Shown here one piece after another: positions 233-45,481 of a stretch of DNA of 60,728 nt; position 1 is the stretch's first letter, and each line of letters starts with the position of its first letter. The stretch spans positions 1 to 60,728 of the forward strand of contig CAZJMP010000001.1 in NCBI GenBank assembly GCA_964547365.1, in the 5' to 3' direction. The translations under genes were made by a program, and so were the position numbers. The notes under the pieces were generated by a model that was not told where the DNA came from, did no database searches, and was given only the letters and a program-made list of their open reading frames with translations. This DNA comes from an uncultured Candidatus Peribacteria bacterium (GTDB lineage: Bacteria; Patescibacteriota; Gracilibacteria; Absconditabacterales; Absconditicoccaceae).

Positions 233-243
233 CTGACTGTGAT

Positions 244-360
244 ACTATCCAGAGTGGACGATAGAGACTAGGCTCGTTAAGCGTCCCGGCAACCTTCCAG
301 AGGCAGGTAAACTTCCATTGGGAACGGTGCCAATTCCTACCCTCACGGGAAAGATATGAG
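244..360 (+). promoter_or_regulatory. SAM-I (S-box) riboswitch aptamer
   Basis: S-box core blocks in the canonical order: tatccAGAGtgg, CCCGGCAACC (285-294), GGTGCCAATTCC (326-337), P4 hairpin ccctcacggg, closing GAAAGATAtGAG. Lies directly 5' of metK. Confidence 0.75.
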
Positions 361-23980: not shown

Positions 23981-24253
23981 ATGACTTTGGAAACGTACAG
24001 AAAAAAAATAGATCAGATAGATCATCAACTTATCGATCTTCTTGCTCAAAGATTCACGGTTGTAAAATCCATACGCGAATATAAAAACACTCATAAAATT
24101 CCTCCTTTGGATCTTTCCAGATGGGCTAGTGTATTGGCTTCCATTAAAAAATTTGCCAAGAAAAAATGATTATCCGAAACGTTTGTCACTGATCTTCGAG
24201 AACGTATCCACAAGGAATCCTTATTGTTGCAAAAAATAAAAAAATCCGCCTAG
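23981..24253 (+). CDS. Chorismate mutase (AroQ type, 90 aa)
   Basis: YRKKIDQIDHQLIDLLAQRF..V..I..YK. Continues through one TGA to a TAG stop. Confidence 0.75.
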
Positions 24254-24268
24254 GCGGATTTTTTTTAT
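24238..24268. terminator. Bidirectional terminator
   Basis: aaaaaaatccgcctaggcggatttttttt, a perfect palindrome. Confidence 0.8.
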
Positions 24269-40853: not shown

Positions 40854-40886
40854 TTGTTTTTTGTTTCTATTTATCTTATCATTTCT

Positions 40887-42305
40887 ATGAATTTAACACT
40901 CAAAACATATATCAACGACAAGAAACTTGTTGCTAAGGATGTCGTGAAAGGCTGCATGGAGAAAGCAAAAACATTGAATGCTGACTATTTTTCCTTTGTG
41001 AGATTCCATGATGACTATGTAGCTGCCCATCTCGACGAATTTGCTTCGAAACCGTTGAAGGCTGCACCTATTTGAATTAAGGACATTATTCTGACTCAAG
41101 AGTATATTACTTCATGCTGATCGAAAATACTTGAAGAGTATGTAAGTCCGTATAGCGCTACCTGTTTTTTGAACTTAGAGAAAAACGGAGGATTGATGAT
41201 CGGAAAAACGAATATGGACGAATTTGCGATGGGTTCCTCTACAGAAACATCATATTTCGGCAAGACGAAAAATATCTACGGAAAAGATAGAAGCCCTGGA
41301 TGAAGTTCTGGATGATCTGCGGTTGCTGTCGCTTCATGAGCGTGTTTAGCTGCATTGGGAACTGATACCTGAGGAAGCATTCGTCAGCCTGCTGCATGGT
41401 GCGGTATTGTCTGAATGAAGCCTACCTATGGTATGGTTTCTCGTTATGGCGTACAATCTATGGCTTCGAGTCTAGATCAAGTTGGTGTCTTTACGAACAC
41501 TGTTGAGGATGCAGAGATCTTATTGAAAGCCATAGCTGGATTCGATCCAAAAGATTCACAGAGTGATCCGAGAGCGGATGAATTTGTAAATTCAGAATTC
41601 AAAATTCAGAGTTCAGAGATAAAAAAATTTAAAGTTTGAGTGCCGAAAGAAGCATTAGGAGAATGATTAGACCCTCAAATAAAGGCATTATTTCTTGCAA
41701 CTATTGATAAACTTCGTGCAAACGATATTGTAGTCGACGATATCTCATTGCCGATGATGGCGTATGCTGTTCCCATGTATTATACTTTGATGCCTGCGGA
41801 AGTAAGTACGAATTTGGCGAGATTTGACGGTATCAAATACTGACTTCAGTCTGATAGCCTGAATGCTGATACTATACAAAAATATTATGAAAACATTAGA
41901 TCCGAATGATTTGGTGATGAGGTCAAGAGAAGGATATTGCTCGGTACTTTTGTTTTGAGCTCAGCTAACTATGAAGGATATTATCTCAAGGCTCAGAAGG
42001 CAAGAGAGGAGTTGCAGGCAGAGTTTGACAAAACATTTGCAAACTATGATATTATTCTTACACCTACTACACCTGAGGCAGCATGGAAGCTCGGTGCAAA
42101 AAATGACGATCCTTTGAAAATGTATTTAGCTGATATGTACACTATCCCTGCCAATATGGCGTGATTGCCAGCCATGTCTGTTCCTATGGGTATGGTTGAG
42201 GATCAAGGGGAAAAGCTACCTGCATGAATACAACTTATGGCAGATAAGCGAGCTGAGAGCAAGCTTTTCGGGTTTGGTTGTTATCTCGAAAAATTACTTG
42301 CGTAA
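40887..42305 (+). CDS. gatA: Glutamyl-tRNA(Gln) amidotransferase subunit A
   Basis: Amidase signature [18 protein letters not shown][G]SSG[G]SAVAVAS (TGA at 41301 and 41313), GTDT[G][17 protein letters not shown]. Confidence 0.95.
41588..41618. repeat. Heptamer array inside the gatA coding sequence
   Basis: aaattca gaattca aaattca gagttca gag encodes [11 protein letters not shown] in a variable GatA linker. Confidence 0.85.
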
Positions 42306-42327
42306 ACAAAAGAATTAATTACAACAT

Positions 42328-42399
42328 GGTCCGGTCGTTTAGTGGATAGGACACAACCCTGCGAAGGTTGTAACCCCGGTTCGACTCCGGGTCGGGCCG
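42328..42399 (+). tRNA. tRNA-Arg (anticodon GCG)
   Basis: Hand-folded cloverleaf: acceptor GGTCCGG/TCGGGCC, anticodon arm CAACC-CTGCGAA-GGTTG, T arm CCCGG-TTCGACT-CCGGG. Confidence 0.8.
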
Positions 42400-42411
42400 A
42401 ATGAATACTAT

Positions 42412-42473
42412 GGGTGATTAGCTCAGTTGGCTACCCCGCAGCGAGTGCGGGGCTCGTTCCACTCGGAGCGTTT
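42412..42473 (+). other. Pseudo-copy of the tRNA-Val 5' part (nt 1-30) with a 32-nt insertion in the D-loop
   Basis: GGGTGATTAGCTCAGTTGGCTA (identical to tRNA-Val 1-22), then 32 nt (42434-42465, containing hairpin ccccgca-gcgag-tgcgggg), then GAGCGTTT (tRNA-Val 23-30). The 5' leader tactat is also duplicated. Confidence 0.7.
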
Positions 42474-42492
42474 TGAAAGATTATATTACTAT

Positions 42493-42569
42493 GGGTGATT
42501 AGCTCAGTTGGCTAGAGCGTTTGCTTGACGTGCAAAAGGTCACAGGTTCGACTCCTGTATCACCCACCA
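42493..42569 (+). tRNA. tRNA-Val (anticodon GAC), CCA encoded
   Basis: GGGTGAT/ATCACCC acceptor, TTTGC-TTGACGT-GCAAA anticodon arm, ACAGG-TTCGACT-CCTGT T arm, ACCA 3' end. Confidence 0.9.
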
Positions 42570-44134: not shown

Positions 44135-45001
44135 TTAAGATACATATTTCGTATATGTATTTATATTTTTTCGTATTTTTTCTGGAGTGAGCTTTTGTAG
44201 CTTGCTGATTAGTTTAGAATCTTCTAATTCTTTTTGCTCTATGGGAATGGTGATGCCGTCTATTGTCTTAAAATCCTTGATGTGTAAAGAAAATGGACAT
44301 CTCGCCAATTTTCCTGGAGGCGTATTGCTAGTATCTAGGATGATCGCTCATTTTCTTCTTTCGTGTCCTGCTATAACATTCAATTTCGTCGATTCACTGA
44401 CTTGTTTCGCTCGTTTGGTAGGAAAACTATCTTCTTTGCCTTTGCCGTAACTCATGTGTGTATCATAAAAATCATGATCCACTGCTGTGTTCAATAGGAT
44501 GTAGATATGGAAACTTGCTCCTGTTCGGAGAATTAATGTTTTGTAGGAAACAAGCTTCGTGAATAATTTATCAGAAGAAATTATTTTTATCAATTCACAG
44601 GCTACTTTTCTCGCATCGTCCGCTGAATTTGTCTGTCTATCAATATCGATGAAGATCCTGTCGATGATGTTTCAGAATTCATTGTTGCAGGCGTAGAAAA
44701 AATTCACCAATTTTCTTGGGACAAAATATTGTCGTAGCAAGACTTGTTTTGGTGTGAGTTGTTCTTTGACTTCGTCTAAGTGATGATCAGCTCTGAGTTT
44801 CAGATAATGCTCATCTATTTCTTTGAAATCTTTGATGTATAATGGTTCGTTTTTTGTTCCTCTTTTGAGGAGTATAAATCTTTCGCCTATGATCTTGCTG
44901 GCGATTTCTTTTCATTTCAGTATCTTGTCCAGTAAGGGAGCGACTTTGCTATATCGCCCTAGAACGTCTAGATTTTTGTAAGGATGAAGAAAATCCTTCA
45001 T
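44135..45001 (-). CDS. Archaeo-eukaryotic primase (AEP/PriS-like) superfamily protein (288 aa)
   Basis: AEP motifs in order: IFIDIDR (DxD), GASFHIYILL (sxH), ILDTSNTPPGKLARCPFSLH (hD..R.P.S.H). Three TGA=Gly codons. In frame with track ORF 44348..44593. Confidence 0.6.
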
Positions 45002-45041: not shown

Positions 45042-45123
45042 TGCCGTCGGGGGGACTCGAACCCCCAAGTCTTGCGACATACGTACCTGAAACGTACGTG
45101 TATACCAATTCCACCACGACGGC
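45042..45123 (-). tRNA. tRNA-Leu (anticodon CAG), class II long variable arm, no encoded CCA
   Basis: GCCGTCG-TG-GTGGAATTGGTATACAC-G-TACGT-TTCAGGT-ACGTA-TGTCGCAAGACTT-GGGGG-TTCGAGT-CCCCC-CGACGGC-A. Collinear with E. coli tRNA-Leu(CAG). Confidence 0.9.
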
Positions 45124-45136
45124 ATGTATAATTGAA

Positions 45137-45204
45137 GCCTATCGTGGTGTATACCAACCTTGCTAAAGCAAGGCCCTGCTTCAGCAGGGTTCCACCACGA
45201 CGGC
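45137..45204 (-). other. Pseudo-copy of the tRNA-Leu 5' part (nt 1-26) with a 32-nt double-hairpin insertion in the D-loop
   Basis: Minus strand: GCCGTCGTGGTGGAA, then ccctgctgaagcaggg and ccttgctttagcaagg (32 nt, 45158-45189), then TTGGTATACAC, then CACGATAGGC, which pairs back to the 5' end. A further hairpin gcccgctatagcgggc lies at 45210-45225. Confidence 0.7.
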
Positions 45205-45238
45205 TTGTTGCCCGCTATAGCGGGCAGATAGCTGGTGA

Positions 45239-45481
45239 TTATTTTTTTCCTTTCTCTTTCTTCTGGAAAAATGCTAGGTAGACGATAGGAAGCAATCCTA
45301 CGGTATTTAAGATGAACATAACGATAAACCGTGTCATCTGCTTTTTTGTTCCTGCTTTCCAAAGTGCGATTCCCTTTCGTACTGCGCTTCGTATAAGGAG
45401 GATGTAGATCAAGATTACTTGTCATTGACTAAGTGCCAAAGGCGCCATGTTACTAGCTAATGATGCTGTTTGAGCTTCCAT
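45239..45481 (-). CDS. Small membrane protein (80 aa, DUF5652-like)
   Basis: ..GIALWKAGTKKQMTRFIVMFILNTVGLLPIVYLAFF.. One TGA codon. Not present in the ORF track. Confidence 0.5.

What the first reader, a model, noticed from the sequence alone, without database searches (positions are those of the whole stretch)
45137..45225. tRNA-Leu(CAG) is preceded by a 5' pseudo-copy with a 32-nt double-hairpin D-loop insertion that folds back on itself
On the minus strand the sequence runs GCCGTCGTGGTGGAA (tRNA-Leu 1-15), then two perfect 16-nt hairpins (ccctgc-tgaa-gcaggg and ccttgc-ttta-gcaagg, 32 nt in total). TTGGTATACAC (positions 16-26) follows, then CACGATAGGC, which base-pairs with the 5' GCC.GTCGTGGTG to close an 11-bp stem. 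A further hairpin, gcccgctatagcgggc, lies just upstream (45210-45225). The result is a compact four-way-junction-like structure derived from a tRNA 5' half. It sits on the outer side of the tRNA, mirroring the tRNA-Val arrangement on the other flank of the islet.
Basis: seen in the sequence. Interest (0 to 1): 0.75.

Follow-up and report, generated by a model that had tools for sequence, protein, structure and literature searches.

The report
tRNA-Leu gene fragment carrying mobile double hairpin
Just upstream of a leucine tRNA gene in an uncultured SR1 (Absconditabacteria-like) bacterium lies a real but recent, lineage-specific copy of the gene's first 26 bases, interrupted by a small mobile two-hairpin element; it is most likely a rearrangement by-product rather than a working RNA.

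Summary
On the minus strand, 45204-45137 reads tRNA-Leu(CAG) nt 1-15, then a 32-nt pair of perfect 16-nt hairpins, then nt 16-26, then CACGATAGGC. A 13-nt leader and the intact tRNA (45123-45042) follow. The unit is predicted to fold into a 12-bp stem closing two hairpins (z = -5.6).

It is not conserved. Three related SR1 genomes with the same locus (DUF5652 gene, hairpin, tRNA-Leu) lack it.

It does belong to a clade-wide pattern. I counted about 24 partial tRNA copies (Arg, Val, Met, Leu) next to intact tRNAs in 12 of 13 related loci. Nearly all carry GC-rich palindromes.

The same double hairpin sits after nt 15, before TTGG, in tRNA-Val and tRNA-Met fragments of other genomes. There it has the opposite orientation relative to the tRNA, which points to a DNA-level mobile palindrome rather than an RNA module.

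Best reading: a tRNA gene fragment left by a template-switch or repair event, colonised by a REP-like or double-hairpin-like element, with no demonstrated function.

Unexplained: the sister tRNA-Val fragment is 100% identical across two species, and both units in this window measure exactly 81 nt (32 + 49).

The parts
45210..45225 (-). Pre-existing GC hairpin GCCCGC-TATA-GCGGGC after the DUF5652-like ORF (45239-45448, minus strand); not part of the insertion
   Evidence: Present directly before tRNA-Leu in L083 and L097, with a compensatory stem change
45190..45204 (-). tRNA-Leu fragment nt 1-15, in the ancestral position with the ancestral leader (GCAACAA; compare GCAATAT in L083 and ACAACAT in L097)
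45158..45189 (-). 32-bp double palindrome (two 16-nt hairpins) inserted between nt 15 and TTGG of the D-loop
   Evidence: The family also occurs in L081, L083 and L086 at the same tRNA position but in inverted orientation
45147..45157 (-). tRNA-Leu fragment nt 16-26 (TTGGTATACAC)
45137..45146 (-). Closing segment CACGATAGGC: the reverse complement of tRNA nt 1-9 with one C-to-TA change, contiguous with the D-stem 3' strand
   Evidence: no other copy in the window
45124..45136 (-). 13-nt AT-rich leader of the intact tRNA (TTCAATTATACAT)
   Evidence: no promoter match
45042..45123 (-). Intact tRNA-Leu(CAG)
   Evidence: ARAGORN; Rfam; 100% identical to the L083 tRNA
42412..42492 (+). Sister unit: tRNA-Val(GAC) nt 1-22, a 32-nt two-hairpin insertion, nt 22-29 and a 19-nt spacer; 81 nt in all, upstream of the intact tRNA-Val 42493-42569
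   Evidence: 100% identical in L083 and L091

Best explanation
This is a non-functional by-product: a 5' fragment of the tRNA-Leu(CAG) gene that holds a small mobile double palindrome.

Shown:
- The genome is an SR1/Absconditabacteria-type bacterium that reads TGA as a sense codon.
- The fragment sits where the ancestral gene start was, behind the conserved hairpin and the ancestral leader.
- The intact gene begins 81 nt further on.
- Relatives lack the extra 81 nt.
- The 32-bp insert belongs to a family found after nt 15 of tRNA-Val and tRNA-Met fragments in other SR1 genomes, in the opposite orientation relative to the tRNA.
- Palindromes of the same kinds also occur as ordinary intergenic hairpins.
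- Insert boundaries in these fragments fall almost always just 5' of TTGG (D-loop) or TTCG/TTCA (T-loop).

Inferred:
- A palindromic, REP-like or double-hairpin-like element targets these tRNA motifs.
- A hit in a gene survives only where an intact copy is regenerated beside it.
- Here that happened through a template-switch (fold-back) replication or repair event. The D-arm hairpin was extended back over nt 9-1, giving the closing segment, and synthesis then resumed at the leader and rebuilt nt 1-26.
- The isoacceptors involved (Leu-CAG, Val-GAC, Arg-GCG) are plausibly redundant, so a temporary disruption could be tolerated.
- The fragment is probably co-transcribed, folds on itself, and is discarded when RNase P cuts the 5' end of the real tRNA.
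For: - Anatomy.
- Absent from the same locus in L083, L093 and L097.
- The leader before the fragment matches the ancestral leader.
- The double hairpin occurs at the same D-loop position in L081 (twice), L083 and L086. Metagenome-wide the strict pattern is found only in such contexts.
- Orientation is inverted. The 24/27 match lies on the strand antisense to tRNA-Leu, and both loops match only in that orientation.
- One copy has a flipped loop (TTCA versus TGAA in L081).
- About 24 fragment units occur in 12 of 13 loci.
- GC-rich perfect hairpins are concentrated at tRNAs: 3 of 8 in the 60-kb window, all in L081, L083, L084, L086, L088 and L091. In L089 they are dispersed between genes.
- The hairpin ATCCGCCTAGGCGGAT inside the L093 Arg fragment is identical to the terminator hairpin at window 24244-24259.
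- A decay series exists. The Arg fragment is full length in L088 and L094, truncated in L093 and L084, and absent in the window. The H3 hairpin is perfect in L096 but has three uncompensated substitutions in L081.
- A fragment is gained or lost between strains with ~100% identical GatA (L083 versus L091).
- The closing segment is the exact complement of nt 1-9 apart from one change, and is unique to this unit among 8 fragment units.
- No Rfam family matches the unit.
Against: - The sister Val unit, including 51 nt of non-tRNA sequence, is 100% identical between two species whose GatA proteins are 83% identical. The adjacent 12-nt spacer, the terminator and a promoter all differ. That is hard to reconcile with neutral junk unless there was recent recombination.
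- Both units in this window are exactly 81 nt (32 + 49), which suggests a defined mechanism I cannot name.
- Some fragments have tRNA arms replaced in register by hairpins, and they share a T-loop insert across L089, L093 and L094. This implies long persistence.
- No transposase or recombinase for the palindromes was identified.
- No donor or template for the leader could be found.
- The template-switch path needs three or four switches and is inferred from a single junction.
Confidence: 0.55

Rival explanations
1. Functional cis-acting leader RNA. The tRNA-derived module is co-transcribed and acts as a decoy, insulator or bistable switch. Its 5' strand can replace the real 5' acceptor strand, so the fold of the leader sets how much precursor matures into tRNA-Leu.
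For: Two nearly isoenergetic precursor folds exist. In the swapped fold (-90.0 kcal/mol) the fragment's 5' strand pairs with the real 3' strand; the separate folds give -88.5. Pairing probabilities are 0.56 and 0.44. Removing the closing segment pushes the swapped fold to 0.97. The module is very stable (z = -5.6). The Val sister unit is perfectly conserved in two species. Fragments lie upstream of the first or second tRNA of operons in many relatives.
Against: The unit is absent from three genomes with the same locus. The double hairpin is inverted relative to other copies. The closing stem is unique to this unit. Bistability follows trivially from any 5' duplication. Hairpins decay without compensation in L081. 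No Rfam match.
Confidence: 0.15
2. Attachment-site scar. The fragment is the displaced original 5' end of a tRNA gene into which an integrative element inserted. The element carried a replacement 5' part and was later almost entirely deleted, or it was a miniature non-autonomous element. The variable islet between tRNA-Val and tRNA-Leu would be related mobile DNA.
For: tRNA gene fragments from integrating elements are a known class (PMC9897764). In L081 the islet is flanked by direct repeats consisting of a 5'-truncated tRNA-Val copy plus the double hairpin, and one copy has a tRNA-Val allele unlike the host's own. In L086 a GIY-YIG ORF sits between tRNA-Met and a 3' fragment. Islet genes turn over quickly (orfA is 63% identical between strains with identical GatA). 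orfC is weakly similar to a primase-polymerase.
Against: Only 23 nt separate the two copies. The fragment lies on the side away from the islet. The duplicated part is the 5' end, whereas (from general knowledge) known tRNA integrases duplicate the 3' part. No integrase, transposase or reverse-transcriptase family was found among islet proteins or among the called genes of ten related loci. No viral contig carries these sequences.
Confidence: 0.15
3. Retro-copy of a tRNA 5' fragment. A processed tRNA-Leu 5' piece folded back on its D-stem, was extended to its own 5' end by a polymerase, and the resulting hairpin molecule was inserted into the leader.
For: The closing segment stops exactly at tRNA position 1 and is contiguous with the D-stem 3' strand. 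A primase-polymerase-like gene lies 40 nt beyond the tRNA.
Against: No reverse transcriptase was seen. The same end point is explained by a switch back to the leader. It is a single case, and the other seven fragment units show no such closing segment.
Confidence: 0.08
4. Assembly artefact: a spurious duplication at a repeat.
For: Several related contigs end, or carry runs of N, exactly at these tRNA repeats (L091, L095, L096).
Against: The unit has 55 nt of unique sequence between 15- and 11-nt repeats. Analogous units recur in independent ENA, JGI, NCBI and Logan assemblies.
Confidence: 0.03

Closest known systems
tRNA gene fragments (partial, non-canonical tRNA genes) left by integrating genetic elements (van der Gulik et al. 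2023, PMC9897764)
   Same: A partial copy of a tRNA gene lies next to the intact gene, in the same orientation, at a locus with variable gene content. Some fragments in relatives carry a tRNA allele unlike the host's own.
   Different: Here the 5' end is duplicated rather than the 3' end. The two copies are only 23 nt apart with no element between them. No integrase was found. The fragments are interrupted by GC-rich palindromes.
REP/BIME-type and MITE-like small palindromic repeats of bacteria (from general knowledge)
   Same: Short GC-rich palindromes in an AT-rich genome. They occur in several sequence types, singly or in pairs, in either orientation, between genes and sometimes as terminator-like hairpins.
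   Different: In this clade most copies sit inside tRNA-derived sequence at D-loop or T-loop positions. No RAYT-type transposase was identified. Copy number in the 60-kb window is very low.
Double-hairpin elements of chytrid and Allomyces mitochondrial DNA (Paquin et al. 2000, recalled from memory, not read here)
   Same: Elements of about 30 nt that fold into two adjacent hairpins, inserted in either orientation into non-essential parts of RNA genes and spacers, with evidence of mobility.
   Different: Unrelated host and sequence. Here the targets are tRNA loop motifs, and each insertion is accompanied by a partial gene duplication.
Quasi-palindrome template-switch mutagenesis (Ripley model; general knowledge)
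   Same: An existing imperfect hairpin (the D arm) extended into a long near-perfect stem by copying the opposite arm.
   Different: The known events are small corrections within a hairpin. Here a 10-nt extension comes together with a 49-nt duplication and a 32-bp insertion.

Membership tests
Functional tRNA, or tRNA with an intron | Complete cloverleaf with anticodon and T arms, detectable by tRNA models | tested here: not met
   ARAGORN and Rfam call only 45042-45123. Nothing is called at 45137-45204, even at E <= 5. The unit lacks nt 27-65.
tRNA gene fragment or pseudogene | Exact identity to part of a neighbouring intact tRNA gene, in the same orientation | tested here: met
   26 of 26 nt identical (15 + 11)
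att-site remnant of an integrative element | Direct repeats that flank an element encoding a site-specific recombinase | tested here: not met
   23 nt lie between the copies. There are no recombinase hits in islet proteins or in neighbouring genes of relatives.
att-site remnant of an integrative element | The duplicated segment is the 3' part of the tRNA (anticodon loop, T loop or 3' end) | tested here: not met
   The duplicated segment is nt 1-26. 3' fragments do exist in relatives.
REP/BIME or MITE-like palindromic repeats | Short GC-rich palindrome family with several dispersed copies, in both orientations | tested here: met
   The double hairpin occurs in four genomes at five sites and in both orientations. 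Related hairpins are dispersed in L089. Only the one double hairpin is found within this window.
REP/BIME or MITE-like palindromic repeats | A cognate transposase (RAYT or IS200/IS605-like) in the genome | not tested
   Only a 60-kb window and ~20-kb loci were available. No such family appears among the precomputed Pfam hits of the neighbouring genes.
Split tRNA genes (Nanoarchaeum type) | The 5' and 3' halves are encoded separately and no intact gene exists | tested here: not met
   The intact gene lies 13 nt downstream.
Ectopic CRISPR-type spacer integration | An insert of about 32 bp flanked on both sides by a duplicated repeat | tested here: not met
   The 32-bp insert is flanked by nt 1-15 and nt 16-26, which are not repeats of each other.
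Known cis-regulatory or small RNA families (Rfam 15) | A match to a curated covariance model | tested here: not met

The most novel reading that the evidence does not exclude
SR1 bacteria may harbour a previously undescribed kind of tRNA-targeting palindromic element. It would insert just 5' of the TTGG or TTCG motifs of tRNA genes and, by its own mechanism, regenerate an intact gene beside the hit (a 'self-repairing' insertion of fixed size, 32 + 49 nt). Alternatively, the resulting tRNA-derived, hairpin-decorated leaders have been co-opted as conserved regulators of tRNA maturation, as the perfectly conserved Val unit hints.
Probability: 0.15. Interest if true: 0.75.

Novelty: new variant of a known kind. 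Interest (0 to 1): 0.45.

Why it matters
If the pattern holds, tRNA genes in these reduced, recoded (TGA = Gly) episymbiont genomes are hot spots for small palindromic insertions and for local gene regeneration. That would explain why SR1 assemblies break at tRNAs. It could also mislead tRNA annotation: ARAGORN called one hairpin-laden pseudogene in L088 as a 92-nt tRNA-Arg. And it would offer a natural system for studying how essential RNA genes survive mobile-element hits. For this particular unit, the practical message is that it should be annotated as a tRNA gene fragment plus a repeat element, not as a new RNA gene.

Tried and rejected
- The genome-contig scan with GatA returned only one distant Absconditabacteria locus, with no tRNAs.
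- Four viral contigs pattern scans (the double hairpin, H3 plus the Val 3' end, the Arg-fragment hairpin, the Val insert) found nothing.
- The metagenome scan for the double hairpin plus TTGG gave only 3 hits in 2 contigs.
- Pfam, PHROGs and PDB sequence searches of the three islet proteins gave nothing beyond a weak LigD primase-polymerase hit.
- The GIY-YIG ORF seen in L086 has no counterpart in the window or other loci.
- The promoter scan found no promoter in either fragment spacer.
- The search for a donor of the new leaders was marginal or null: the Val leader versus the L097 spacer gave 25 of 500 shuffles, and the Leu leader gave nothing.
- A 12-nt match (ATAATATGCTAG) between the tRNA-Leu trailer and the L081 repeat was not significant.
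- Simple 49-nt tandem duplication was rejected, because the sequence upstream of the fragment is unlike the proximal leader.
- Derivation of the closing segment from the tRNA 3' acceptor end fits worse (3-4 changes in 11) than a fold-back copy of nt 9-1 (one change).
- A closing stem as a general feature of these units was rejected.
- Literature searches found no description of this pattern.

Full report
**Context**

The window is a low-GC (38%) bacterial segment in which TGA is a sense codon. gatA (40854-42305) carries in-frame TGA where conserved glycines are expected (sequence). ORFs become full length only with table 25. The closest GatA homologues are labelled candidate division SR1 / Absconditabacterales. 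ARAGORN finds four tRNAs: Arg(GCG), Val(GAC), Leu(CAG) and Leu(CAA).

**Observation**

On the minus strand the sequence is exactly as described:
- hairpin GCCCGC-TATA-GCGGGC (45225-45210);
- tRNA-Leu nt 1-15 (45204-45190);
- two perfect 16-nt hairpins (45189-45158);
- nt 16-26 (45157-45147);
- CACGATAGGC (45146-45137);
- a 13-nt leader;
- the intact tRNA (45123-45042).

The predicted fold is a 12-bp stem with one bulge closing two hairpins: -36.6 kcal/mol, z = -5.55, 0 of 200 shuffles as stable. This is a three-way rather than a four-way junction.

The tRNA-Val flank mirrors it: nt 1-22, a 32-nt two-hairpin insert, nt 22-29 and a 19-nt spacer. The spacing to the real gene is again 81 nt.

**Comparative evidence**

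GatA homologues led to syntenic loci from 13 related assemblies. The order SecA ... GatA - tRNAs - variable islet - RuvB - SLH protein - NDK is conserved.

- *The Leu unit is lineage-specific.* L083, L093 and L097 have tRNA-Leu(CAG) at the same place without the unit. In L083 and L097 the conserved upstream hairpin abuts the tRNA, and its stem shows a compensatory change. The leader in front of the window's fragment (GCAACAA) matches those ancestral leaders (GCAATAT, ACAACAT). So the fragment occupies the ancestral gene start, and the extra 81 nt lie within or after it.
- *The double hairpin is a family.* The same two palindromes sit between nt 15 and TTGG of 5'-truncated tRNA-Val copies in L081 (two copies) and L083, and of a tRNA-Met fragment in L086. 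The metagenome scan found the strict pattern only there. Relative to the tRNA, the window copy is inverted. The 24/27 match, including both loops, lies on the strand antisense to tRNA-Leu. One L081 copy has a flipped loop.
- *Partial tRNA copies with GC-rich palindromes are common in this clade*. I counted about 24 units in 12 of 13 loci:
  - Arg fragments in L081, L084, L088, L089, L093, L094 and L096;
  - Val fragments in the window, L081, L083, L088, L091, L094 (three in tandem) and L095;
  - Met fragments in L086;
  - a 3' Leu fragment at the end of L091;
  - none in L097.
- *Insert boundaries are not random.* By my reading of the sequences, 11 of 13 inserts end immediately 5' of TTGG, TTCG or TTCA. 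Some tRNA arms are replaced in register by hairpins (A2).
- *The same hairpin types occur away from tRNAs.* ATCCGCCTAGGCGGAT in the L093 Arg fragment is identical to the terminator-like hairpin at window 24244-24259. L089 has many intergenic copies.
- *There are signs of decay and turnover.* The Arg fragment ranges from full length to absent. The H3 hairpin is perfect in L096 but carries three uncompensated changes in L081. L083 and L091 have ~100% identical GatA yet differ by a 123-nt Val fragment and in their islet genes.

**Mechanism**

The orientation independence of the double hairpin, its recurrence in different tRNA contexts, the shared hairpin types and the decay series all point to DNA-level palindromic elements that land in tRNA loop motifs. 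They would persist only in copies that are not needed.

The closing segment is the reverse complement of nt 1-9 with one change. It continues the D-stem 3' strand and is unique to this unit among 8 fragment units. I read this as a fold-back or template-switch event that also rebuilt the 5' end of the gene. This step is inferred, not shown.

Folding of the whole precursor gives two nearly isoenergetic states, -90.0 and -88.5 kcal/mol. This follows from any 5' duplication. The closing segment would favour harmless local folding during transcription.

**What speaks for something more**

- The Val unit, including 51 non-tRNA nucleotides, is identical between the window and L083/L091 (GatA 83% identical), while the neighbouring spacer, terminator and promoter differ.
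- Both units in the window are 32 + 49 = 81 nt.
- The Arg fragments share a T-loop insert across three genomes.

I cannot explain these observations. They keep a functional or programmed reading alive at roughly 15%.

**Comparison with known systems**

- No Rfam family matches.
- It is not a tRNA, a split tRNA or a CRISPR-type insertion.
- The att-scar model lacks an element, an integrase and the usual 3' polarity.
- Literature searches found no description of this pattern. tRNA gene fragments as a class are known (PMC9897764).

**Verdict**

The best reading is a young tRNA gene fragment carrying a mobile double palindrome, which makes it a new variant of known kinds. Interest is moderate, mainly for the clade-wide pattern.

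Noticed in passing
window 40854-42305 and throughout: TGA is read as a sense codon (Gly at conserved GatA positions). Table-11 ORF calls are fragmented and table 25 restores long genes. The organism is SR1/Absconditabacteria-like.
   Followed up: partly
window 42327-42400: tRNA-Arg has anticodon GCG, which is unusual for bacteria (normally ACG, as far as I know). It is conserved in all related loci.
   Followed up: no
window 42412-42492; L083 11642-11722; L091 2395-2475: The tRNA-Val 5' fragment with its 32-nt insert and 19-nt spacer is 100% identical in two species (GatA 83% identical), although the adjacent spacers differ. Both fragment units in the window are exactly 81 nt.
   Followed up: partly
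window 44135-45001 (-): A 288-aa islet protein has DxD, SFHIY and PFSLH motifs and a weak LigD primase-polymerase hit (E = 0.013). It is conserved in the L083, L091, L093 and L097 islets. The neighbouring orfA and orfB evolve very fast.
   Followed up: partly
L086 2302-2556 (-): An 85-aa GIY-YIG nuclease ORF sits between the intact tRNA-Met and a 3' tRNA-Met fragment whose nt 22-31 are replaced by a hairpin. Two more Met fragments lie upstream.
   Followed up: partly
L093 11777-12154 (-): A DUF559 (endonuclease-like) ORF is inserted between the DUF5652 gene and tRNA-Leu(CAG), next to long GC-rich palindromic repeats.
   Followed up: no
L094 7940-8150: Three tandem 3' fragments of tRNA-Val follow the intact gene. 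Each consists of nt 39-48, the hairpin CCCCGTAG-TC-CTACGGGG in place of the T arm, and the acceptor 3' strand (two of the three also keep the CCA end). The units are separated by two ~39-nt spacers, the first of which repeats the 39-nt trailer after the real tRNA.
   Followed up: no
L088 11505-11640; L093 6432-6512: These Arg fragments carry the tRNA-Arg allele typical of L081 rather than that of the host's own intact gene. ARAGORN calls the L088 copy, which has three hairpin inserts, as a 92-nt tRNA-Arg.
   Followed up: partly
L091 end, L096 end, L095 7602-7700: Contigs end, or contain runs of N, exactly inside these tRNA and fragment repeats, so assemblies of this clade tend to break here.
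   Followed up: no
window 242-360: A SAM-I riboswitch (just at the gathering score) lies upstream of metK (433-1557).
   Followed up: no
L083 11420-11470, L092 3350-3430, L094 7420-7515, L095 7410-7450: AT-rich tandem repeats lie immediately downstream of the gatA stop codon in several relatives. They are absent from the window.
   Followed up: no
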